Shown one piece after another: positions 13,326 through 49,087 of a stretch of 64,000 nucleotides of DNA. The stretch's first letter is position 1, and every line of letters begins with the position of its first letter. The DNA lies in NCBI RefSeq assembly GCF_965641715.1, contig NZ_OZ282455.1, one strand, 5' to 3'. A program made the translations under genes and the position numbers. The notes under the pieces are model-generated. The model was not told the DNA's origin. It worked only from the letters and a program-made list of their open reading frames with translations, and made no database searches. This DNA comes from Escherichia coli (GTDB lineage Bacteria; Pseudomonadota; Gammaproteobacteria; Enterobacterales; Enterobacteriaceae).

Positions 13326-15617
13326 TCAGTACATTCCGTCCCAGTCCGGACGGTTGGTTTTTTTATGATGAAACCCGTTTACAGGACGCCCTGTCGGGTG
13401 GTTATTGTCCTGTGGAAGCGTTAACAGGTTTATACCTGCTCTTTCTGCTCTCACTGATATCTGATTTTCCTCTTTTGTTTCAGGTAGTTCTGGTCTGTTC
13501 AGCGTGATATAGCGAATTCGTCGCTCTTCCCGTGTGGTCGTTTTAAGCGTATTCACCGCTGTTTCCCACAAGGCACTTTCACGTGCGTTGATATCTGTGT
13601 CGTACTCTTCCAGCATTGCCATAGCCGCCTGACGTCCTGCAATGCGTTGCTGGAATGTATCCACGATCGTGTGCGGCTCTGTGCGAATTTTTCGTCTTTT
13701 TCTGGAGGGTTTTGCAGTCAGGACGCCAATGATGGCACTGACATTTTCCGGTGACGGTATTCGACGTTGAGTAGTACGGGGAACAAGACGGCGGAGACGG
13801 TCCAGGCGTGGCGCATCCACGCTGATATACCTGTTTATAACAACGGGATCGCTGCTGCAGCTTTTCTCATCGTCAGGGATGAAGAATGATGCTGATGGTA
13901 CGGTTTCTCCCCGGAAAATAGAAAAGAACTCGCCAGGATGAAGTTCAATCAACTCCTGAACATTTATCTTGCTTTCCATCAGGATGCTGATTTGTGGGCT
14001 GTCAATCCATGATTCACCAAATATGCCGTCCTGACGCTGCAGGTTGTTCATTCTCGCCCTGGCTTCTTCACCGGCGGCGCTTTTCAGCGTTCTGGCCGTA
14101 CTACCCTCGCTGACAATCCTGCCGGCAAATTTTGTCCCCGTGTTCTGCATCAGTGTTGCAGTATTCGTGGCTGTTGTCTGTCCTTCTATACGTTCCTGGT
14201 CCTGTGCCATCAAAATCAGAGCAAAATCCAGTGAACGCACCTGAGTGGCTTCCACAGCAATACGGTCCGTATAGTATGCCCCCACTTCATCAAGGAAACA
14301 CAGATAAGGGAAACGCCCCTTATATTTTTTGACTTCCAGTGCATCGGAATCAGTTCCTTCGAGGCGGTAGCCCAAATCACGGGCGAGAATCATACTTTTC
14401 TGGGTGATAAACATTCGTCCAAGAGCAGACGTTGTATGCGCTGATGTATCCAGAGCGGGGATCATTACCATCAGAATCCTGTCGCTGTGAATGCTGTCAC
14501 GGATATCGATATCACCGGAATCTTCAGCAAAAATATCCCCGAATGCTTCCGTGAATGTGCTGAAAGTTTCAGAAAACTGCCCGGAGAGATAAGCATGTTG
14601 TTTTCTGGGTTCTTCCGTCCAGGCTGATGGTGTCCTGACCAGCGACAGGTCGAAACCGGGAACGTCCTGAAGGTAGTTACGTAACGGTGCGATAGCTTCT
14701 TCCGGCCACTGATCATCGAGGCCACGACAGTAAAGTTTGGCCATCCCTTCGAGAGTCATATGTTCACGGAGCATCTGCAGCGACATTGTTTTGCCTTCGC
14801 GCACACACCAGAATTTAGTACCAAATACCAGTGCCTTATTCATGGCAATGGCCCGGGACTGCCACTCGCCCCCCTGGACGTTCTGGGGCAGCATTGACTG
14901 CATTGTCTCCGCTGTGAATGCCTCAGTGCTGTAACAGAAGGGATTCCAGGTATTTGACTGAGGACGCGTTTTTTCACCACTCAGAATGATTTCACTGCGG
15001 GATTTTCCTCCGTTCATGAAGTTAATGACTTCCACATCGTCTTCACGTCCAAAGCGTCTGGCCAGATACCAGATCGTTCTTGCCGTATCATTCTGTGCCT
15101 TGCCATCGACAAGGGTGAATCCTCTTGCCCAGCAAAGTGGGTTAATCGCCCAGGCAAAGATGGTTTCCGTTTTACCGCCACCGGTGGTGGCGAAAAACAT
15201 TATATGGCGGGTCAGATCGTCCATACTCAGCCATAACTCCCTGCCAATATCCCTGACGCGTTGATAACCAACATAGAATATGCCGCTGGCCGGTGATTCC
15301 AGAATGACCTCATACTGGAACAGGGTTGGCCAGAAGCTGAAAAGACTTCTTTTAATCATTCTGTCCTGTGACGGGTCAGCACATTCCAGCGTCATGGGCA
15401 TACGAAGAGGGCAGCGCCATCGCTGCAGACTAAATACCAGCATTGTTATCAGTGTGAACAACAGACATGCCGGTAATGCAAGTGGCCAGATAAAACTGGC
15501 CACAAGACTTGCCACCAGGCAAAAGCCATAGATATTGAGACTCTGGAGTGCATTCCAGACAGGATTTCCCCAGGCTGTACGGTGTAAAAGCTCGGGGTTA
15601 ACGCGATGTTCACTCAT
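13326..15617 (-). CDS. trbC: conjugal transfer protein TrbC (P-loop NTPase)
   Basis: 763-aa ORF with Walker A FATTGGGKTE and N-terminal TM segments; gene order trbA-trbB-trbC-nikB as in R64. Confidence 0.75.
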   Translation of the reverse strand: MSEHRVNPELLHRTAWGNPVWNALQSLNIYGFCLVASLVASFIWPLALPACLLFTLITMLVFSLQRWRCPLRMPMTLECADPSQDRMIKRSLFSFWPTLFQYEVILESPASGIFYVGYQRVRDIGRELWLSMDDLTRHIMFFATTGGGKTETIFAWAINPLCWARGFTLVDGKAQNDTARTIWYLARRFGREDDVEVINFMNGGKSRSEIILSGEKTRPQSNTWNPFCYSTEAFTAETMQSMLPQNVQGGEWQSRAIAMNKALVFGTKFWCVREGKTMSLQMLREHMTLEGMAKLYCRGLDDQWPEEAIAPLRNYLQDVPGFDLSLVRTPSAWTEEPRKQHAYLSGQFSETFSTFTEAFGDIFAEDSGDIDIRDSIHSDRILMVMIPALDTSAHTTSALGRMFITQKSMILARDLGYRLEGTDSDALEVKKYKGRFPYLCFLDEVGAYYTDRIAVEATQVRSLDFALILMAQDQERIEGQTTATNTATLMQNTGTKFAGRIVSEGSTARTLKSAAGEEARARMNNLQRQDGIFGESWIDSPQISILMESKINVQELIELHPGEFFSIFRGETVPSASFFIPDDEKSCSSDPVVINRYISVDAPRLDRLRRLVPRTTQRRIPSPENVSAIIGVLTAKPSRKRRKIRTEPHTIVDTFQQRIAGRQAAMAMLEEYDTDINARESALWETAVNTLKTTTREERRIRYITLNRPELPETKEENQISVRAERAGINLLTLPQDNNHPTGRPVNGFHHKKTNRPDWDGMY

Positions 15618-38619: not shown

Positions 38620-39171
38620 TCAGGGTTTCCAGTCTGTACCCTTATTCCAGCGATCCTGCCAGTGTTCAAGATATTGTGCGGCTACATCCGGCATATTCTT
38701 GAGCACAACGACATTCTCTGAATTCTTGCGTGCAGCAGCACGAGAGAAGTTATAGGAGCCAGTTTCAACCGTGTTTCCGTCAACAATGATGACTTTGTCG
38801 TGATGGATGGGGAAGGCATCTACAGTCCGGAGAGGAATGTCCAGCAGGTTGATATATTTCATCGCTTCCTGACTTGCCCGGTTCGTATTCCCCTTGTCAT
38901 CAACAACAATACGGACGTCCACTCCGCGTTTTTTCGCTTTTGCCAGCGCATGCATTACATCCGGGTCGGTGAAGGAATATGCCATCATCCTGATGGAGCT
39001 TTCCGCACTGTTGATTGTGTCAAGCACCAGAGCGGATGCGCTTCCTTCAGGAGAAAAGCCGACCTTCACGGATGGCGTGTCGATCATTGCAAACGATGGT
39101 GTCGTGAACAGTAACGGGCATGCCAGTAGCGATACCCGGAGCAGAGTAACGATAGTTTTTTTACCTGACAT
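38620..39171 (-). CDS. nuc: phospholipase-D-family endonuclease Nuc
   Basis: Signal peptide plus HKD motif (HHDKVIIVDG...GSYNFS); start chosen at MSGKK, track ORF is longer. Confidence 0.75.
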   Translation of the reverse strand: MSGKKTIVTLLRVSLLACPLLFTTPSFAMIDTPSVKVGFSPEGSASALVLDTINSAESSIRMMAYSFTDPDVMHALAKAKKRGVDVRIVVDDKGNTNRASQEAMKYINLLDIPLRTVDAFPIHHDKVIIVDGNTVETGSYNFSRAAARKNSENVVVLKNMPDVAAQYLEHWQDRWNKGTDWKP

Positions 39172-39185
39172 AAAGACTCCAGAAT

Positions 39186-39476
39186 TTAATCGAGGCCAGT
39201 CCAGTCTCGTGGTGATTCCGTATGGTGGCGATACCACCATGGACGACCGGAGGCGATGGCCCCTCTCAGAATGCTGAAAATGCGTGTACAGATAGTCCTG
39301 ACAGTCCAGCCTGAACGGTCGAGAATAACGAAAAATAAAATGATGCCGGTGCAAATCCAGAAGGTTGTTTTGGAGGGAAAGGGGCATATAAACAGATAAA
39401 TCATGGTGAACGGCAGAGGTACGCCCTGGATGTTGACTGGCGGTGTTGCATATCGCCAGAAACCTTCTCTTTTCAT
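39186..39476 (-). CDS. traK: TraK (IcmT-like small membrane protein)
   Basis: 96-aa hydrophobic ORF between nuc and traJ. Confidence 0.55.
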   Translation of the reverse strand: MKREGFWRYATPPVNIQGVPLPFTMIYLFICPFPSKTTFWICTGIILFFVILDRSGWTVRTICTRIFSILRGAIASGRPWWYRHHTESPRDWTGLD

Positions 39477-40621
39477 GACCGTAACTCCCCTGGCGGGATA
39501 AAAAGAATCGCTTCTCTTCGGTCAACTTCATTCCGGATATACATTTCCAGAATCTGGTCCCGGATACGGCGCTTCTCCTGCCGGATTATGGCATCAATGT
39601 GATGCCCCCACTCTGCATGCGGCATTCCGGAAAGATTGTCGCGAAGCTCATCGTTAATGACGATATATTCCCGGACGGCTTTACGACCACCGTCATTTGT
39701 TCTGACCAGAACCTGAACCAGAATGAACTGCAACAGTGACAGGACAGCCCAGGCCATCGAATCCCTGATGACAGGGGGAAACAGCCCAAGAAGACGTGCC
39801 AGCGTTTCACCAGGAGATTTCGTATGCATGGTGCTCAGGCAGTAATGCCCGGTGTTGCCTGCCTGTACCGCTGCGTCGGCGGTTTCGTTATCCCTGATCT
39901 CACCAACACCGATAATTTCGGGATTACGTCGTACAGCAGAACGCAGTCCGGCAGCAAAACTGACCACATCACGCCCGATTTCTGCCTGATGCGGTGGGAG
40001 CAGATCGTTTTCATTTCCCAGGATATATTCCACCGGGTCTTCATATGTCACGATTTTGGCGTCGGGGAAATTGTCCATAATGTAACGGTACAGTGCTGAA
40101 CACAGCGTTGATTTTCCTGACCCGGTTTCACCACATACAAATCCCAGACCGCTTTTGCAGACCATTGCTTCAAGCAGGTCTGGTTCAATGTTCATGGAGA
40201 GAATGTCCGGTATTTCTGTCGGGATGACACGCATGGTTATTGAGATTGCTTTCTCCTCCGCACCAGATGTGCCCTGAATGAGGTGAGAGCGTAACCGGAT
40301 GCGTTCTCCGCGTTTAAGACCATAGCGCCCGGATGCATCCCCGTTAATCTGTATCGTCCTGTCAACCGGATTGCCTGCCAGAACGCGGGGAATGACTTCC
40401 CGACCGAACAGTTCATCAATCAGGGAGGACATGAGTGTGGTTGGTAACGTTGCACTGGAACAACGCACCCGTCGGCCAAAGCGACTGACAGATACAGGTG
40501 ACCCGCCGGTCAGATCCACATCACTGACTTTATGTGCGGCACACCAGACAAAGAAATGCCGTAGTTCATCTGCAGTGAAACGCTGAAACGGAAAAAGACC
40601 AAACTCATCAGGAATATTCAT
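39473..40621 (-). CDS. traJ: TraJ, PilT/DotB-like secretion ATPase
   Basis: 382-aa ORF with Walker A GETGSGKST. Confidence 0.8.
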   Translation of the reverse strand: MNIPDEFGLFPFQRFTADELRHFFVWCAAHKVSDVDLTGGSPVSVSRFGRRVRCSSATLPTTLMSSLIDELFGREVIPRVLAGNPVDRTIQINGDASGRYGLKRGERIRLRSHLIQGTSGAEEKAISITMRVIPTEIPDILSMNIEPDLLEAMVCKSGLGFVCGETGSGKSTLCSALYRYIMDNFPDAKIVTYEDPVEYILGNENDLLPPHQAEIGRDVVSFAAGLRSAVRRNPEIIGVGEIRDNETADAAVQAGNTGHYCLSTMHTKSPGETLARLLGLFPPVIRDSMAWAVLSLLQFILVQVLVRTNDGGRKAVREYIVINDELRDNLSGMPHAEWGHHIDAIIRQEKRRIRDQILEMYIRNEVDRREAILFIPPGELRS

Positions 40622-41436: not shown

Positions 41437-41891
41437 TTTTTCCGGTTCTCCGGCTGCATGAAGCTGACCTGTAACAAGCCCGGATATTGATGGATTGTTG
41501 CTCTCCAGGCTGTCTGGGCTTCAATAAGTCTCAACGTATTGGAAAACGTCATATCCCGGACGTGAAGGTTGACTGGTAACGGCAGGCGGACACCATTGTA
41601 GTTAAACTGCATCCCCCTGACTCTGGCCAGTTCGTTCAGTAATTCAATTGCATCACCTTCCCAGTCAAAGGAAAGGCGATCGCTGTTAGCTGTCAGAAGA
41701 TGAGACCCCGTTGAAACCGGAAGTTGGCCGGAAAATACACCTTTGTCCCATAATGTGTACTGAGTGTGCCGGGTAACCGCCACATCAGAGGCAGCACCGT
41801 AGTTACGCGGAACAGGAGTATGCTGAGAAGGGGAGTTGCAGCCAGCCAGAAAAAGGGCGGCAAGACACCCCGCAGGTATAATACGGTTCAT
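41433..41891 (-). CDS. traH: TraH lipoprotein
   Basis: 152-aa ORF with lipobox LAGC. Confidence 0.65.
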   Translation of the reverse strand: MNRIIPAGCLAALFLAGCNSPSQHTPVPRNYGAASDVAVTRHTQYTLWDKGVFSGQLPVSTGSHLLTANSDRLSFDWEGDAIELLNELARVRGMQFNYNGVRLPLPVNLHVRDMTFSNTLRLIEAQTAWRATIHQYPGLLQVSFMQPENRKK

Positions 41892-42096
41892 AATAATTCC
41901 TGAGCAGTTAAATCAGAATGGGATATACCGGTGCTCCGGTACAGACAGGATGATGTTTGTTTCCGGCTATACTTGCGTTACCGGAAATAAATGCCAGTGT
42001 GGCCAGGTAAATAGCCTCATAGTTTACTGAAGGTGATTATTCCTGATACTGGCTGGTTGATGTGTCGTCAGACATAAAACGAATATGAGCGTAATC

Positions 42097-42230
42097 TTTA
42101 ACGCTCCGCGCCGAATCGATCCATGATGGATGACTCGACGATTTATGAATCGAACGTACCGGCGCTTGTCCCTGAAACAGTTCCCGGCCCTCGTCCGGAT
42201 AACCTGCAATTCAGACAGGCACATGTGCCC
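42097..42230. repeat. conserved ~135-bp intergenic element, copy A (between traG and traH)
   Basis: Shares TAACGCTCCGCGCCGAA.CGATCCATGATGG and CCCTCGTCC.GA.AA.C.GCA.TTC.GACA blocks with copies at 62168-62300 and 63231-63365. Confidence 0.6.
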
Positions 42231-42285
42231 GTACACTCTTGTATCTTACTGAGTATATCAGAATTTATGTAAATTCAAATATCCT

Positions 42286-42870
42286 CTATGCCTCTTTGTT
42301 GTATTTTCCGTCAAGTATGAGCCGGGTACCATCGTAATGCATGATCAGGGCATCAAGGTACGCCGGTTTGAATTTCTTGCCGAGCCTATCTCTGGCCAGA
42401 AATGATAAACAATGATTATGTGTCATTATTACTATGTTCCTTTTATGAGATTCTCTTGCGATTGATTCAAGCGTCTTATAAAGATCATTATTGCAGTCTG
42501 ATAAACTGTCCATAACGACGGGTTCTTTACCGGAGAAGAATTTTGCAGTTTGTATGGTTCTTACCGCATTGCTGGAGTAAATATCATATTCACTGAAGAT
42601 TGTTGCGAACTTAATACCTTCCTGCTGTGCTTTCTCTGTACCGGTAATAGTGATTCCGCTTTTATCCGAATAGCATGGCATATCTGAACGGTCGCAACGT
42701 TCTCCATGGCGGAAAAGGAAAATAACGGTGTTATCAGCATTAATTTCTTTTGCCTGTTCCAGGGTGATATCGGGAAGCGAGCTTTTTGCTTTTGTCACTG
42801 CCGCTACCAGGAAAACAGAAAATAAAAGAATGAATGCTGTTTTTGAATAAGAAGAACGTGGTTTCATCAT
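42286..42870 (-). CDS. traG: periplasmic histidine-phosphatase-family protein (Ais/PmrG-like) at the traG position
   Basis: Signal peptide plus RHGERCDRS...HNHCL motifs resembling Ais (LPS core heptose phosphate phosphatase) as I remember it; gene name by position only. Confidence 0.55.
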   Translation of the reverse strand: MMKPRSSYSKTAFILLFSVFLVAAVTKAKSSLPDITLEQAKEINADNTVIFLFRHGERCDRSDMPCYSDKSGITITGTEKAQQEGIKFATIFSEYDIYSSNAVRTIQTAKFFSGKEPVVMDSLSDCNNDLYKTLESIARESHKRNIVIMTHNHCLSFLARDRLGKKFKPAYLDALIMHYDGTRLILDGKYNKEA

Positions 42871-42929
42871 GTTATTTAAACTGAATATAAAAATACCCCC
42901 GGGTTTAGTGCCGGGGGCGGGGACAGTAA

Positions 42930-44132
42930 TCAGAAAGTGAACTGAAGTTGTGCCATTGCACCGTAATCGTGGTCAGTTCCTACCAGGCCGGAAACATCGA
43001 TATGTACGACGTCAAATGGAGAGATACCAACGCCAGCGGTGAAGGCGCTTCCGGAGTTTGATGCCATGTTCTGACGATAACCGGCACGCAATTGCGCCCA
43101 TTTCCATGCGTTAAATTCAGCACCAACACTTGCAAACTGACGTTTGCTGTCAGAAGTGAAGCCACTGGCAGGAGTCAGATCAATGTCAAGAGCAGTGGTA
43201 AACAGGTCATTATGCCAGGATACACCGGCGGTTGCCTGCGGACGAACTTTGAAGGTTTCTTTAAAGCCATTGACGACTTTAGTATCAATACTGCGTGGAA
43301 TGATGTTCTGGGCAACAAGACCGACAGTCCAGTTGTCATTCAGGTCTGTATAAGCACCAATATCGGCGTTGAATCCGTTTTTCGTGTTGTGGTACTTGTC
43401 ACCGTCAAAATCGTCTTTGTCGTAATCACGAACCGTTACGTTGTAGTTAAACAGGTCCACACGCTGATATTTTGGTGTGACGCCAAGAGACCATTTTTGT
43501 CCGGCCGTTTCCAGTTCTTTGGCAAATGAAATTCCGACGTCGGTAATTACAGCTGCACGCCCGAATGCGCGTGAGGTCAGGGCATTCTTATCGACGTCGG
43601 TAATTGTTCCATTGGCAACTTTGTCCAGATAATCCAGGTCTGCATCGTTTACTTTTCCGTTTACGCTGACAGTTCCGTAAGACTTGACCATAAGGGCAAA
43701 CGGCAGAGTGTCATTTGCCATGGCTGCTACAGCTGATACACCTACCTGAGCATCTGCATTGATATTGCGGAATTCCTGCAGACGATGTTTAAGATTTGCC
43801 GCTGCCTGTTGTACGCCATGCTGGTTATCTACAGCACTGTCAAACAAATCCCAGTCATCTTTAACATCATCAGCTTTATTTGATACATCATCAGGATCAG
43901 CAACTTGTGCCCCAACAGACGGCAGAAGAAGGCTGAAATCATCATTGCTGTTGTGCTTTGTCAGTAAAGCCGGGTTTGCCAGAGGTGCCACACCATAATG
44001 GGAAGATGCTACCCCGGTACCACCCATTGCATCGTTACGCGCTTCAAAATATGACGTCGCTGCTGCAGCGTTAAAGGAAAATAATACAGCAGATGCAATG
44101 ATGGTGCGGGTAATATGATTTTTCTTCATCAT
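42930..44132 (-). CDS. traF: predicted outer-membrane beta-barrel protein at the traF position
   Basis: 400-aa ORF with signal peptide and C-terminal ...LQFTF terminal aromatic typical of OMPs; name by position. Confidence 0.55.
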   Translation of the reverse strand: MMKKNHITRTIIASAVLFSFNAAAATSYFEARNDAMGGTGVASSHYGVAPLANPALLTKHNSNDDFSLLLPSVGAQVADPDDVSNKADDVKDDWDLFDSAVDNQHGVQQAAANLKHRLQEFRNINADAQVGVSAVAAMANDTLPFALMVKSYGTVSVNGKVNDADLDYLDKVANGTITDVDKNALTSRAFGRAAVITDVGISFAKELETAGQKWSLGVTPKYQRVDLFNYNVTVRDYDKDDFDGDKYHNTKNGFNADIGAYTDLNDNWTVGLVAQNIIPRSIDTKVVNGFKETFKVRPQATAGVSWHNDLFTTALDIDLTPASGFTSDSKRQFASVGAEFNAWKWAQLRAGYRQNMASNSGSAFTAGVGISPFDVVHIDVSGLVGTDHDYGAMAQLQFTF

Positions 44133-44216
44133 TTAATTTCCTGTTTATCAGAATTTAGACAAAACAACGCTATGACACGGATGTGCCGTAATTTTTACTT
44201 TGGTACTATCTGGTAT

Positions 44217-45041
44217 TTACCAGGGTAATAAAGACGTATTAAATAAGCTAACAGGTAGTATTTGCCCTGTAATAAGGTTCCCGGCAAGGCCAGGTCTCAA
44301 CGTGACGCGTCGCAAAGACATTGTTGTATTCTGCCTGGTTGTATATTCAGTTAACCATTTTCTTTTTTCATCGTTCAGAAGTGTTGGTGATAATGATAGT
44401 GCCGGATATATTACAGAGCCATTTATTTCTTTTTTCTGTCTCAATATTACCCCGCAATATTCTCTTTTCGTGTTTCCGGCGAAGGGGAAACTATGCCAGA
44501 AAATAACTTCAGTGTTGCTGCTATCACTAATAAGCATTCTGAAATTATCAGCAGTATCTGGCCATTCACCGGACAACGCTATCGGATAGTTTTCATGGCC
44601 ATTCAGCCAGTCCGGATTGAGATTAAAACATTCAGCAAGATGTTCGAGAGCGTCAGCTGAAAGATAGTCTGCAAGTCTGGCCGGGTCCTGTATAACCGTG
44701 GAGCGGATATTCCATGGCGACAGCAATGTTGCCAGTAATGGCGCATTTATATCATGCGACAGCATGATGTATTCAATTCTGCTTATTATGTTTCCTGTGG
44801 TGTTATCCGCAGGCATAAACATATTATGAAGAGCATCCTCAAGCAGGATTCGGGTTAAATCAGCGGTGGATATGGCTAATTGTTCGCTCATTATCCCCAG
44901 AACTTCTCTTACCCCTTGGGGGTAACGGACCTGCAGAGGTGTCGGGTTTATCTGACGACCGTTGATGAGTTTTTCGCCGATTGCTTTTTTGTCCAGCGAG
45001 AGCATCATTCGGGCCGCAATACCGGTCGTATTCAGTCTCAT
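44217..45041 (-). CDS. traE: hypothetical protein at the traE position
   Basis: 274-aa ORF; name by position only. Confidence 0.5.
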   Translation of the reverse strand: MRLNTTGIAARMMLSLDKKAIGEKLINGRQINPTPLQVRYPQGVREVLGIMSEQLAISTADLTRILLEDALHNMFMPADNTTGNIISRIEYIMLSHDINAPLLATLLSPWNIRSTVIQDPARLADYLSADALEHLAECFNLNPDWLNGHENYPIALSGEWPDTADNFRMLISDSSNTEVIFWHSFPFAGNTKREYCGVILRQKKEINGSVIYPALSLSPTLLNDEKRKWLTEYTTRQNTTMSLRRVTLRPGLAGNLITGQILPVSLFNTSLLPW

Positions 45042-45191
45042 TGTTCCTCCGACTGAAAAAGTCTTTTCAGCTCATGTGGTTATTGTATCTTCGGTGTTTT
45101 TTCTGGTGAAACGAATAATTTCGATCATGCAGATCGAATGTGTTTGGCGAGTTGTTGCAACTCGCCTTTCTGTATGTGTTTTGAATGATGT

Positions 45192-46346
45192 TTACAGCGG
45201 GGTGCTGCCCGGGTTCAGAGGGCAAATCATAATGTAGTCAGGGTCGTTAACAGGTAACGCTCCGGGAGATGGGACACGTTCGCCTTTCTGTGCTGCAATG
45301 GCCAGTGTACGCAACAAAACCTCACTGGCGCGGTGAACTGCTTCCTCTTTCGTTGTGGCAGTGACGTGAAGGTTATCAAAATCACCGATCTCAATACGAT
45401 GCGCTTTCTGCCCATTTTCTTCATCGATGGTCGTGATATGGGCAGGATACGGCACAAACCATGCTGCCACTTTTTGTGTCTGCCGCCGGCGGGCATCAAG
45501 CTTACTGACCAGTTGCCATGCACGAAGATGAGTATACCGTTTCAGCATATTCATGGAACGATGTCCTGATATTGCAGCAATCTCCATTACATTCAGGCTA
45601 CCCAGTTCGAAGAAGCGGCTTATTGCTTCATGCCGTAGATCGTGAAAATGCAGGTCCTCGATGCGAAGTCGTTGTGTGGCTATTCTCCAGGCATTTTTAA
45701 AGCCGGATGCGGTGTAATCAAAAACATTGCCGTGGAGATTAACGGGCATCATCTGAAGAAAGTTACGGGCACGTCTGGACAGAGGAACATCCCGTGAGTG
45801 ACCGTTTTTGGTTTCAGGTAAATGAGCCACACCGTGGCGCAAATCAATGTGCTCCCAACGTAAGGCCAGTATTTCGCCCTGCCGCATGGCTGTCTCAAGG
45901 GCAAGATGGAAAATGACATACAACATCAGATTTTTTTCGCGGAAATAGCGAGAAAGGCGACGTTCTTCTGAAGACGTTAGCCGGCGATCTCGTCCCGAGG
46001 ATACTTTCGGCTTGCGAACCAGTTCAACCGGGTTAGTACGACAGGTTCCCCATTCAACACGAGCAATATTGAACAGAGATGACAGAAGGGCGAGTTCAAG
46101 ACGTACAGTATTACCTGTAATGGGTTTACCCGTTCGGGGGTTGATTTCTGCTAAACGAACGTCTCTGTATGTAGCAATATCAACGGTTGTTATTTCGTCC
46201 ATATTCCGAAGGGCAATGGGATATCGCTTGATAACATTGCTCCGGTAAAACTCCTGTTGATGCCCTTTCTTGTGAACAGAAACTGTTTTCAGGTACTTAT
46301 CCAGTGCGCGTGACAGGGACATTTTACGGATGCGTGGAGACGGCAT
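45192..46346 (-). CDS. rci: shufflon-specific tyrosine recombinase Rci
   Basis: 384-aa product from MPSPRIRK with tyrosine-recombinase motifs ([14 protein letters not shown]); adjacent to 19-bp sfx repeats. Confidence 0.9.
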
Positions 46347-46397
46347 GCTAACCTCAAAAGAGGCAAAAAATAATGCCAACAATCATTCTCTGCAAGC

Positions 46398-47650: not shown

Positions 47651-49087
47651 TTAAGTTTGATATCCAAATACTGAAAATACCCCGGCACCACATGATGTAT
47701 TTTCTGTTGGATAGGATGTTATCTGATAGGAAGTACCTGCAGGTACAGCAAAGCTGATAAAGGCTGTTTTTCCATATGCAGGGTTATTACTGGCATTCAC
47801 GCTAATTAGCGTCCCACCAACATATCCCTGCAGTCGGGATGTATTTGCACATGCACCTCCGGCAGATCCTCCATTACCTCCAGATGCATAAATAAACAAT
47901 GTACTGCCCCCTGAATTCCGCCCTGAGAATGAACCTCTATGTGAACCTAAGTTTGTGTAAGAACCATTGAGCGAACCAGAAGTCTTCCACGTACCGGATT
48001 GGCACGAAAGTATTGCCCCTGTATTATCGCGGCCTACAAGGCCGTTAGGCGAACATGATGCGCCAGCAACGGCAGTTCTTTCCAGTTGTAAGTATTCACC
48101 AGTATAAAGGCGACCATCAGCCCGAACAGTACCGCCTTTCACCTGACCGCCGGTATAGATGCCCTTGTTGTTTACACTTCGAACCCATGATCCGTCGGAC
48201 ATATAAAATCCGCCACCGTGAGTTTCATTGAGCCAGCCTTTGCTGTTACGAGTAATTAACCAACCATTATTACTTCTGATATCACCGCCAGCGGTGACAT
48301 TTACGTCAAAGTTTCCGCTATTGCCTTTTACCTGACCGCTGAAAGTGCCATTTACACCATTCACATTGCCGCTGAAATTACCAGTCTGGGCATTTACTGC
48401 CCCAATGTTATTCAGGTTATTTGATCCCATATCAATGGCCGTGTGCATTTTGTTTAAGTCAGGGCGACCATTGACCTGGAATCTGTAAAGACGATCAGTG
48501 TCCTCTGCTGCACCACTAAGTTCATCTGTCGATAACAGTACGGCAATATGCCCGTTACCGCTTTTGGCACCATAATTACTTAAAGCTACTGACCAGGAAC
48601 GTAATGCACCTGTGGCTGTTTTGCCGTCCTGGATATATCCACCAAGACCAGTGGTAATATCCTTAGCCATCTGGATAAGTGCTTTCACTGGATAAGGGGT
48701 GCCACCACTGGATACAACCATTGCCTGTAGTAATTCCGGGTTTTGGGCGTTTCGAACTACATATGCCTGTAACCGCTGCCCCTCGCTGTTTGTCTCAATA
48801 AAGCCGCTGGACAAAAAGCCGGTATTTTTCAGCATGGTTGTCGTGATAACGGCAGGGGTTGATGTGGTACTACTTGCCTGGAGAGTTGTGTAGTTTTTCC
48901 CTATATAAGAGCGGGCTGCACTGGCCCAGTTGCTGACAAGACGAGCTTCAGCCTGCCAACCTTTGGTTTTTAAATAGTCCTGCCATATGCCTGCTCCCCA
49001 GGCAACTATGATCATAACAATCAATAAAGCCGCGCCAATTTCCAGCGATGCCCAGCCTCGGTCATATTTTTTCATCAGATTACCCAT
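47651..49087 (-). CDS. pilV: thin-pilus tip adhesin PilV (constant region fused to the currently adjacent shufflon segment)
   Basis: 478-aa ORF with type IV prepilin-like N-terminus; crosses sfx repeat 6 into the shufflon. Confidence 0.85.
47987..48005 (-). repeat. sfx 19-bp repeat 6 (inverted), junction with the pilV constant region
   Basis: ccacgtaccggattggcac; encodes the ...CQSGTW... junction of PilV. Confidence 0.85.

What the first reader, a model, noticed from the sequence alone, without database searches (positions are those of the whole stretch)
42286..44132. traG and traF positions encode a periplasmic histidine phosphatase (Ais/PmrG-like) and an outer-membrane beta-barrel
The phosphatase resembles an LPS-core-modifying enzyme and is paired with an OMP in a transfer operon. 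This hints at cell-envelope remodelling during conjugation rather than a structural secretion component.
Basis: partly seen in the sequence, partly recalled or inferred. Interest (0 to 1): 0.3.

Follow-up and report, generated by a model that had tools for sequence, protein, structure and literature searches.

The report
IncI1 plasmid TraG phosphatase and TraF barrel
Two accessory genes in the transfer region of a common IncI1 (R64-type) resistance plasmid encode an exported Ais/PmrG-like histidine phosphatase and a FadL-like outer-membrane barrel; both are already annotated, are dispensable for transfer, and are neighbours rather than a conserved pair.

Summary

None of this is new. RefSeq already calls the R64 gene "histidine phosphatase family protein". 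A published TnSeq study of pESBL lists it as a heptose(II)-phosphate phosphatase and scores traE, traF and traG as non-essential for transfer.

"Not a structural secretion component" is supported. "Paired with the OMP" is not:
- A terminator-like hairpin separates the two genes.
- traF travels with traE across I-complex plasmids, and at least about 490 traF-bearing plasmids have no Ais-like gene.
- traG is a low-GC module of about 1 kb that is exchanged by recombination. A 73% allele sits between flanks that are about 100% identical (dN/dS 0.15).
- A rare relative carries a 41%-identical paralogue in the same slot.
- Other paralogues sit in a prophage and next to IS, integrase-fragment or fimbrial genes.

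LPS-core dephosphorylation is inferred from homology only. A role in conjugation is untested.

The parts
42286..42870 (-). traG-position CDS (194 aa): exported Ais/PmrG-family branch-1 histidine phosphatase
   Evidence: ORF. Pfam His_Phos_1 35.1 bits and NCBIfam NF011945 295 bits. AF2 model pLDDT 76, with the top Foldseek PDB hits mostly histidine phosphatases. 100% identical protein in many IncI1 plasmids.
42787..42870 (-). Codons 1-28 of TraG: predicted Sec signal peptide (MMKPRSSYSKTAFILLFSVFLVAAVTKA | KSS)
   Evidence: Basic n-region, then a 12-aa segment with Kyte-Doolittle mean 3.07 at residues 14-25, then T-K-A. No other hydrophobic segment. Modelled as a lone helix, residues 10-30. No dedicated signal-peptide predictor was available.
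42703..42711 (-). Codons 54-56 of TraG: the catalytic RHG motif (CGC CAT GGA)
   Evidence: Read directly from the sequence. R54 and H55 are invariant in alignment A1. The Pfam and SixA profile matches begin at residue 50.
42895..42918 (-). GC-rich hairpin with a U-rich tail in the 59-bp traF-traG spacer (terminator-like)
   Evidence: 8-bp stem with 7 G-C pairs, followed by ATTTTTATAT. RNA fold -19.2 kcal/mol, z -2.56. An equivalent hairpin follows the traF stop in IncK2/Z, IncI-gamma and L019 plasmids that lack traG.
42930..44132 (-). traF CDS (400 aa): FadL/PorV/BamG-like outer-membrane beta-barrel of about 14 strands (Pfam TraF_2)
43968..43976 (-). Codons 53-55 of TraF: the N-P-A motif in the N-terminal hatch segment
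   Evidence: N53 and P54 are invariant and A55 is >=90% conserved in 108 homologues at 28-60% identity. That NPA is the FadL hatch signature is from my own knowledge; a FadL 'delta NPA' mutant structure is listed.
41896..42950 (-). Exchangeable 'traG module' (traF stop to traH start): low-GC block that recombines independently of its flanks
   Evidence: Against locus L003, DNA identity is about 100% through traE-traF, 65-85% (lower where gapped) across this block, and 90-98% again from traH. GC is 40.3% for traG versus 51-53% for traH-J. dN/dS 0.15 and dS about 1.05 for the two alleles.
41892..42285 (-). traG-traH spacer (394 bp), partly shared with plasmids that lack traG
   Evidence: L019, which has no phosphatase, aligns to this spacer starting at the traG stop codon, including a 25-nt identical block at 42101-42125. 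Rfam finds nothing here.
44217..45041 (-). traE CDS (274 aa, no known domain): the conserved neighbour of traF
   Evidence: TraE and TraF are adjacent in all seven other I-complex plasmid types examined; in L019 only the C-terminal 108 aa of TraE were detected. No Pfam, NCBIfam or PHROG hit. A promoter-like site (45082-45110) and a GGAGG Shine-Dalgarno sequence lie upstream.

Best explanation
The window carries the traE-traF-traG segment of an IncI1 (R64-type) plasmid.

TraG is a Sec-exported, probably disulfide-bonded, branch-1 histidine phosphatase. It belongs to a distinct plasmid lineage of the enterobacterial Ais/PmrG family. By homology it most likely removes a phosphate from the LPS inner core of the plasmid-bearing cell, heptose II phosphate in PmrG, after the LPS has been flipped to the periplasmic face. 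Its identity is shown here. Its substrate and effect are inferred.

TraG is an accessory cassette, not part of the secretion machine. It sits between a terminator-like hairpin that ends traEF and the spacer upstream of traH. It has foreign base composition, is swapped by recombination, and is missing from many sister plasmids.

TraF is a FadL/PorV-like outer-membrane barrel of about 14 strands with an NPA hatch. It is the conserved partner of TraE, and is also accessory. Adjacency of TraF and TraG reflects a permissive, variable slot rather than a two-protein system.
For: - Identities.
- Plasmid identity and prior annotation.
- Dispensability: PMC4288162 Table 2.
- traG is absent while traE-traF-traH are kept in L001 (IncI-gamma/K1), L002 (IncK2/Z), L019 and L020.
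- 1934 plasmids carry TraF against 1441 with any Ais-like match.
- Cassette behaviour: sharp identity boundaries, GC 40% versus 51%, dN/dS 0.15 with dS about 1 between alleles flanked by an identical traF, and homology in L019 resuming at the traG stop codon.
- Hairpin.
- Family biology: PmrG dephosphorylates heptose II (Nishino 2006, as cited in PMC8129183). Canonical Ais lies beside arnBCA. Other paralogues sit in a prophage lysis-terminase gap, and next to IS elements, an integrase fragment, a fimbrial operon and an autotransporter gene.
Against: - No enzymology exists for TraG. It has only 38-43% identity to chromosomal Ais-like proteins and misses the PmrG equivalog cutoff (123.7 < 170).
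- No solved relative is detectable by sequence, and the fold match is weak (best E 2.4e-3, TM 0.49).
- An Ais-like gene recurs in the same traF-traH slot of a deeply diverged I-complex plasmid (L013, 41% identity). This could mean the position is selected for a transfer-related role.
- traG has no obvious Shine-Dalgarno sequence or promoter, so its expression is unproven.
- TnSeq tested only solid-surface mating into one K-12 recipient.
Confidence: 0.6

Rival explanations
1. TraG edits the donor surface to tune conjugation. By changing inner-core phosphate it alters how the donor's own LPS is seen by PilV thin-pilus adhesins (limiting donor-donor binding), or it loosens the outer membrane for pilus and T4SS assembly. 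TraF assists at the outer membrane.
For: - The gene is embedded in the tra/pil region next to pilV, the shufflon and rci.
- An Ais-like paralogue occupies the same slot in a deeply diverged I-complex plasmid.
- PilV adhesins of R64/TP114 bind LPS core structures, including HepII-a1,3-HepI-4-phosphate for PilVA' (PMC10654706).
- traF expression in IncI1 pTF2 depends on the host waaP and waaQ genes (PMC6768964).
Against: - The HepII phosphate (WaaY) is not required for PilVA' recognition.
- traE, traF and traG are non-essential in TnSeq.
- traG is absent from hundreds of conjugative I-complex plasmids.
- A terminator-like hairpin separates traF from traG.
Confidence: 0.2
2. TraG is pure host-benefit cargo, unrelated to transfer. 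Like PmrG it reduces surface negative charge and so protects against Fe3+/Al3+, cationic peptides, or core-binding phages and colicins. This would be a plasmid version of lysogenic conversion.
For: - It behaves as a cassette with foreign GC.
- Paralogues are carried by a lambdoid prophage between the lysis and terminase genes, by phage GER2, and next to IS, integrase-fragment and fimbrial genes.
- It is under purifying selection.
- It is dispensable for transfer.
Against: - An E. coli pmrG deletion had no effect on polymyxin or deoxycholate resistance in a PmrA-constitutive strain (PMC8129183).
- Hosts already carry a chromosomal ais.
- Common in-frame deletion and frameshift variants exist among IncI1 plasmids.
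Confidence: 0.3
3. TraG acts on a substrate other than LPS heptose II phosphate, for example another periplasmic phospho-sugar, a lipid A or Kdo phosphate, or a phosphoprotein.
For: - It falls below the PmrG equivalog cutoff.
- It forms a separate deep branch from the canonical Ais/PmrG clade, with unsupported deep nodes.
- The family shows weak profile similarity to SixA, a small histidine phosphatase that acts on a phosphoprotein.
Against: - It is a full-length, collinear match to the subfamily model (positions 4-200 of 201, 295 bits).
- The same RHGERCDRS and THNHC motifs and the four Cys are invariant with the Ais-like proteins.
Confidence: 0.15

Closest known systems
Salmonella PmrG / E. 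coli Ais (LPS core heptose(II)-phosphate phosphatase; NCBIfam NF011945 subfamily, NF052369 equivalog)
   Same: About 190-200 aa, with an N-terminal export signal, an RHGERCDRS catalytic motif, a THNHC motif and four conserved Cys. It is a full-length match to the subfamily model.
   Different: - Only 38-43% identical, on a separate deep branch, and below the PmrG equivalog cutoff.
- It lies in a plasmid tra region rather than divergent to arnBCA.
- No evidence for PmrA control. Activity is untested.
FadL / TodX / TbuX hydrophobic-compound channels
   Different: 12-18% identity. TraF has large helical extracellular insertions (residues 83-121 and 163-173). No substrate is known, and it is encoded in a conjugation region.
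PorV (T9SS shuttle) and BamG (Bacteroidota BAM subunit)
   Different: Below both PorV cutoffs (55.7 < 90; 26 < 250). No T9SS exists in Enterobacteriaceae.
Same-named proteins of other plasmids: F TraF (thioredoxin-like), RP4 TraF (peptidase), F TraG (VirB6-like), and the IncP/Ti TraG coupling protein
   Same: The names only.
   Different: No Pfam or NCBIfam match to any of those families. The Pfam description of PF13729, 'F plasmid transfer operon, TraF', and the use of IncI1 traF as an 'essential pilus assembly gene' in PMC6768964 are name collisions.

Membership tests
Histidine phosphatase superfamily, branch 1 (PF00300) | Profile score above the curated threshold | tested here: met
   His_Phos_1 scores 35.1 bits against a gathering score of 21.7, E 1.4e-8.
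Histidine phosphatase superfamily, branch 1 (PF00300) | N-terminal RHG motif carrying the nucleophilic His | tested here: met
   R54-H55-G56 (window 42703-42711). R54 and H55 are invariant in nine paralogues down to 32% identity.
Histidine phosphatase superfamily, branch 1 (PF00300) | Additional catalytic Arg residue(s) and a second His in the C-terminal half | tested here: inconclusive
   R58, R61, H151 and H153 are invariant, and R104 is conserved in 8 of 9 sequences. Which residues are the catalytic ones was assigned from motif pattern, not from a structural superposition.
Histidine phosphatase superfamily, branch 1 (PF00300) | Alpha/beta phosphoglycerate-mutase-like fold | tested here: met
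   AF2 model pLDDT 76, pTM 0.69. The top Foldseek PDB hits are mostly branch-1 enzymes (phosphoserine phosphatase 5zr2, TTHB049, FBPase-2, SixA, CobC, PGAM5), but weakly: best E 2.4e-3, TM 0.49.
Ais/PmrG LPS core heptose(II)-phosphate phosphatase | Subfamily model NF011945 above its cutoff | tested here: met
   295.1 bits against a cutoff of 142, covering positions 4-200 of 201.
Ais/PmrG LPS core heptose(II)-phosphate phosphatase | PmrG equivalog model NF052369 above its cutoff | tested here: not met
   123.7 bits against a cutoff of 170. None of the ten other paralogues tested reached it either; the best was 144.8.
Ais/PmrG LPS core heptose(II)-phosphate phosphatase | Export to the periplasm (signal peptide) | tested here: met
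   Basic n-region, hydrophobic residues 14-25 (Kyte-Doolittle 3.07) and a T-K-A site. Four invariant Cys are consistent with disulfides. This is a sequence inspection only, with no dedicated predictor.
Ais/PmrG LPS core heptose(II)-phosphate phosphatase | Chromosomal locus divergent to the arn (pmrHFIJKLM) operon | tested here: not met
   Canonical Ais (P0258) lies beside arnB, arnC and arnA. TraG lies between traF and traH on a plasmid. PmrA-dependent regulation was not examined.
Ais/PmrG LPS core heptose(II)-phosphate phosphatase | Dephosphorylation of heptose II of the LPS core | not testable with these tools
   Needs LPS mass spectrometry or an enzyme assay. The activity is known for Salmonella PmrG only, from the literature cited in PMC8129183.
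FadL-family outer-membrane barrel (TraF; Pfam TraF_2 PF13729) | Profile score above the curated threshold | tested here: met
   PF13729 scores 246.1 bits against a cutoff of 25. HMMER finds 1256 cluster representatives at E <= 1e-3.
FadL-family outer-membrane barrel (TraF; Pfam TraF_2 PF13729) | 14-stranded barrel with an N-terminal hatch domain | tested here: met
FadL-family outer-membrane barrel (TraF; Pfam TraF_2 PF13729) | Conserved NPA motif in the hatch | tested here: met
   N53 and P54 are invariant and A55 is >=90% conserved in 108 homologues.
FadL-family outer-membrane barrel (TraF; Pfam TraF_2 PF13729) | Signal peptide and a C-terminal aromatic residue for BAM insertion | tested here: met
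   Residues 1-25 have pLDDT below 50, with a hydrophobic core and an AAAA site. The C-terminus is ...QLQFTF.
PorV (T9SS) | PorV/PorQ family or PorV equivalog model above its cutoff | tested here: not met
   55.7 bits against 90, and 26 bits against 250.
Core component of the I-type (Dot/Icm-like, MPF_I) T4SS | Required for conjugative transfer | tested here: not met
   From the literature, not from a computation here. The pESBL TnSeq 'non-essential' probabilities are TraG 0.79, TraF 1.00 and TraE 0.93, with 0.00 'required for transfer' for all three (PMC4288162).
Core component of the I-type (Dot/Icm-like, MPF_I) T4SS | Conserved wherever the system occurs | tested here: not met
   traG is absent from L001, L002, L019 and L020, which keep traE, traF, traH, traI and traJ. 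TraF is conserved in I-complex plasmids, but its homologues also occur alone in chromosomes and in non-tra contexts.

The most novel reading that the evidence does not exclude
Ais-like phosphatases are a mobile 'LPS-core conversion' module used by several kinds of mobile element: IncI plasmids, lambdoid prophages and genomic islands. Under this reading the traF-traH slot of I-complex plasmids has captured such phosphatases more than once. The reason would be that removing an inner-core phosphate from the carrier cell changes how it is recognised, whether by the plasmid's own LPS-binding PilV pilus, by core-binding phages or colicins, or by cationic agents. That would be a plasmid analogue of lysogenic conversion acting on core phosphates rather than on O-antigen.
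Probability: 0.2. Interest if true: 0.5.

Novelty: already known. Interest (0 to 1): 0.2.

Why it matters
IncI1 plasmids are major carriers of ESBL and AmpC genes in E. coli and Salmonella, so every conserved backbone gene is a potential handle on spread.

This finding mainly clears up names. IncI1 TraG is not a coupling protein and IncI1 TraF is not a pilus-assembly factor. At least one experimental paper used traF as if it were (PMC6768964). Neither gene is needed for transfer under the laboratory conditions tested.

If the phosphatase does edit the LPS core of plasmid carriers, it could influence mating specificity, phage or colicin sensitivity, or metal and peptide tolerance of resistant strains. 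No data yet show any of this.

Tried and rejected
- Sequence searches of the PDB with TraG, TraF and the TraG-family profile found nothing.
- PHROGs gave no hit for TraG or TraE, and only an unnamed family for TraF.
- Rfam found nothing credible in 41700-45300.
- I searched for an RfaH ops element (GGCGGTAG) near traE/traF, because PMC6768964 reports one in the pTF2 tra promoter region. The only exact match in the window is at 14363 on the other strand.
- I tested whether the L013 slot phosphatase is the orthologue of IncI1 TraG. Pairwise identity (41%) is no higher than to chromosomal or island paralogues. An NJ bootstrap tree places them on separate deep branches with unsupported deep nodes. 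Ancestral presence versus independent capture therefore stays unresolved.
- I considered 'TraG hides the donor from PilVA''. Published waaY recipient data argue against it.
- Literature searches for IncI1 plus histidine phosphatase, IncI plus FadL, and PF13729 gave nothing useful.
- The IncI1 review PMC8139525 is not held.
- Only one deposited phage genome carries an Ais-like gene, so the 'phage-borne' aspect rests mainly on one prophage context (two near-identical loci).
Full report
**What is in the window.** On the minus strand the region reads pilV (47651-49087), shufflon, rci (45192-46382), traE (44217-45041), traF (42930-44132), traG (42286-42870), a 394-bp gap, traH (a DotD-like lipoprotein), traI, traJ (a PilT/DotB-like ATPase), nuc and sog. 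A 3.7-kb query across traI-traE matches 1369 plasmid records at >=99% identity. They are mostly conjugative MPF_I plasmids of Escherichia, Salmonella and Shigella. R64 itself (NC_005014.1) has the same order and a 100% identical TraF. The window is therefore an IncI1 backbone.

TraG (194 aa):
- It matches Pfam His_Phos_1 at 35.1 bits (gathering 21.7).
- The RHG motif (R54-H55-G56), R58, R61, H151 and H153 and four cysteines are invariant across nine paralogues down to 32% identity.
- The N-terminus is a typical export signal: basic residues, hydrophobic residues 14-25, then T-K-A. There is no other hydrophobic stretch.
- An AF2 model (pLDDT 76) retrieves mostly branch-1 histidine phosphatases from the PDB, but weakly: best E 2.4e-3, TM 0.49. 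No solved relative is found by sequence.

TraF (400 aa):
- It matches Pfam TraF_2 at 246 bits.
- It folds with pLDDT 92.6 into a barrel of about 14 strands with an N-terminal plug.
- N53-P54-A55 is essentially invariant in 108 homologues. From my own knowledge, this is the FadL hatch signature.
- The protein ends in ...QLQFTF.

**Already known.**
- RefSeq/PGAP labels the R64 gene 'histidine phosphatase family protein'. Several submitters write 'traG: histidine phosphatase domain protein'.
[quoted passage not shown] It scores TraG, TraF and TraE as non-essential for transfer, and 0.00 as 'required for transfer' (PMC4288162 Table 2).
- I recall that Komano et al. 2000 reached a similar conclusion for R64, but I could not read that paper here.
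- I found no paper addressing the function of these proteins.

**Is the phosphatase paired with the barrel? No.**
1. The 59-bp spacer holds an 8-bp, 7-GC hairpin followed by AUUUUUAUAU (-19.2 kcal/mol, z -2.56). A comparable hairpin follows the traF stop in relatives that lack traG. It therefore looks like the ancestral end of traEF. traG starts 25 nt further on, without an obvious Shine-Dalgarno sequence.
2. IncI-gamma/K1 (L001), IncK2/Z (L002), a Salmonella plasmid (L019) and an Enterobacter plasmid (L020) keep traE-traF-traH-traI-traJ. None has a phosphatase, and tblastn finds no remnant. The traF-traH distance varies: 103, 358, 520 and 595 bp, against 1038 bp in IncI1. In L019, homology to the window resumes at the traG stop codon.
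3. Across PLSDB, 1934 records carry a TraF homologue but only 1441 have any Ais-like match.
4. TraF_2 proteins form a large family, with 1256 representatives at 50% clustering. Members are found alone in a chromosome, on a plasmid-sized contig beside fimbrial genes, and beside T4SS/T4P genes. None of the three contexts examined has a neighbouring phosphatase.

**traG is an exchangeable cassette.**
- Locus L003 carries a 73%-identical TraG allele. Its DNA is about 100% identical to the window through traE and traF up to about 42954. Identity then falls to mostly 65-85% until the traH start, and returns to 90-98%.
- Between the two alleles dN/dS is 0.15 with dS about 1.05. Both are therefore functional genes that were swapped by recombination rather than diverging in place.
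- traG has 40.3% GC, against 51-53% for traH-J.
- Alleles at 87%, 86% and 73% identity exist in tra contexts. A 60% relative sits in a non-tra island.

**Variant and damaged alleles.** Some IncI1 variants look damaged: a six-residue in-frame deletion that removes the conserved C66 (a cluster of 365 sequences), a representative with R54H, and frameshift or fusion forms. That fits a dispensable accessory gene.

**A second phosphatase in the same slot.**
- A rare I-complex plasmid (CP057134, L013) has TraJ 57%, TraI 61% and TraF 86% identical to the window. It carries an Ais-like gene between traF and traH that is only 41% identical to TraG. Only three PLSDB records have this gene.
- In an NJ tree the IncI1 TraG clade and the L013 clade are each supported at 100%. 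They are not sisters. The canonical Ais/PmrG clade is separate, and the deep nodes have 30-40% support.
- Ancestral presence with fast divergence and loss, or two independent captures, both remain possible.
- Either way, the recurrence is the best argument that the position is not random. I have kept a conjugation-linked role alive at about 0.2 for that reason.

**The wider family.**
- The canonical Ais (P0258) lies divergent to arnB-arnC-arnA.
- One paralogue sits between the lysis cassette and the terminase genes of a lambdoid prophage, with a 72% relative in phage GER2.
- One sits next to an integrase fragment and perC.
- One sits next to a SPATE autotransporter gene.
- Two sit next to IS elements, one of them also near a fimbrial operon and the other near a DsbA-like gene.
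- The family appears confined to Enterobacteriaceae among the 295 hits.
- This pattern suggests a surface-modifying cargo gene that mobile elements pick up.

**Mechanism.**
- Shown: an exported histidine phosphatase of the Ais/PmrG subfamily with catalytic residues intact and under purifying selection; and a FadL-like barrel.
- Inferred: dephosphorylation of an LPS inner-core phosphate on the periplasmic side. This follows Salmonella PmrG acting on heptose II (Nishino 2006, cited in PMC8129183).
- Caveats: TraG misses the PmrG equivalog cutoff (123.7 < 170), and so did all ten other paralogues I scanned. Specificity is therefore open.

**Link to conjugation.** The evidence is mixed.
- PilV adhesins of R64 and TP114 bind LPS core structures. 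PilVA' binds HepII-a1,3-HepI-4-phosphate, but the HepII phosphate added by WaaY is not needed (PMC10654706). That argues against simple donor cloaking.
- traF transcription in IncI1 pTF2 rises 6.1-fold with cefotaxime. This depends on the host genes rfaH, waaP and waaQ (PMC6768964).
- From my own knowledge of the WaaP, WaaQ, WaaY order, both waa mutants lack HepII phosphate. This is a lead, not evidence.
- I found no ops element near traE.

**Verdict.**
- The proposed phosphatase-OMP partnership is not supported.
- 'Remodelling during conjugation' is untested.
- The feature is already annotated in the reference plasmid and in more than 1300 records, so novelty is low.

Noticed in passing
window 41892-42929; loci L001, L002, L013, L019, L020: The traF-traH junction is a variable slot across I-complex plasmids. 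It is 103 bp, 358 bp, or 520 bp with no phosphatase gene; 595 bp with an unannotated ORF of about 138 codons (L020); 774 bp with a 41% paralogue (L013); and 1038 bp in IncI1.
   Followed up: partly
window 42101-42125 (-) and 42252-42278 (-): A 25-nt block (CATGGATCGATTCGGCGCGGAGCGT) is 100% conserved between the window and L019, inside a spacer that is otherwise about 74% identical. Just after the traG stop there is a promoter-like TTGAAT-15 nt-TATACT (TATAAT in L019). This may be the traH-operon promoter or operator.
   Followed up: no
L013 (CP057134) versus the window: TraF is 86% identical, while TraE, TraH, TraI and TraJ of the same plasmid are 57-65% identical to the window. traF itself therefore seems to move by recombination among I-complex backbones.
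   Followed up: no
TraG variants P0001, P0002, P0007, P0009 (window 42286-42870 equivalents): The representative of the largest cluster has R54H in the RHG motif. A 365-sequence cluster has an in-frame deletion of MPCYSD that removes the conserved C66. Several forms are frameshifted or fused to other sequence. Part of the IncI1 population may carry inactive TraG.
   Followed up: partly
L017/L018 6001-6582; phage GER2 MG710528.1 46139-46711: An Ais-like phosphatase (P0207 lineage) sits as a moron between the holin/endolysin genes and the terminase genes of a lambdoid prophage. A 72% relative is annotated in Escherichia phage GER2.
   Followed up: partly
window 42930-44132 (traF); PMC6768964: A published reporter study deleted this IncI1 traF and described it as an essential pilus-assembly gene, citing F and RP4 TraF work. 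This is a name collision: IncI1 TraF is a FadL-like barrel that TnSeq scores as non-essential. The Pfam description of PF13729, 'F plasmid transfer operon, TraF', is similarly misleading.
   Followed up: yes
window 44217-45041 (traE): TraE (274 aa) has no Pfam, NCBIfam or PHROG match and no signal peptide. It is nevertheless kept next to traF in every I-complex plasmid examined (33-58% identity in the diverged lineages). Its function is unknown.
   Followed up: no
window 38620-39531 (-): The mechanical 303-aa ORF over-extends nuc. The PLD nuclease domain is at residues 170-295. The same interval also holds the 96-aa TraK/IcmT-like ORF at 39186-39476.
   Followed up: no
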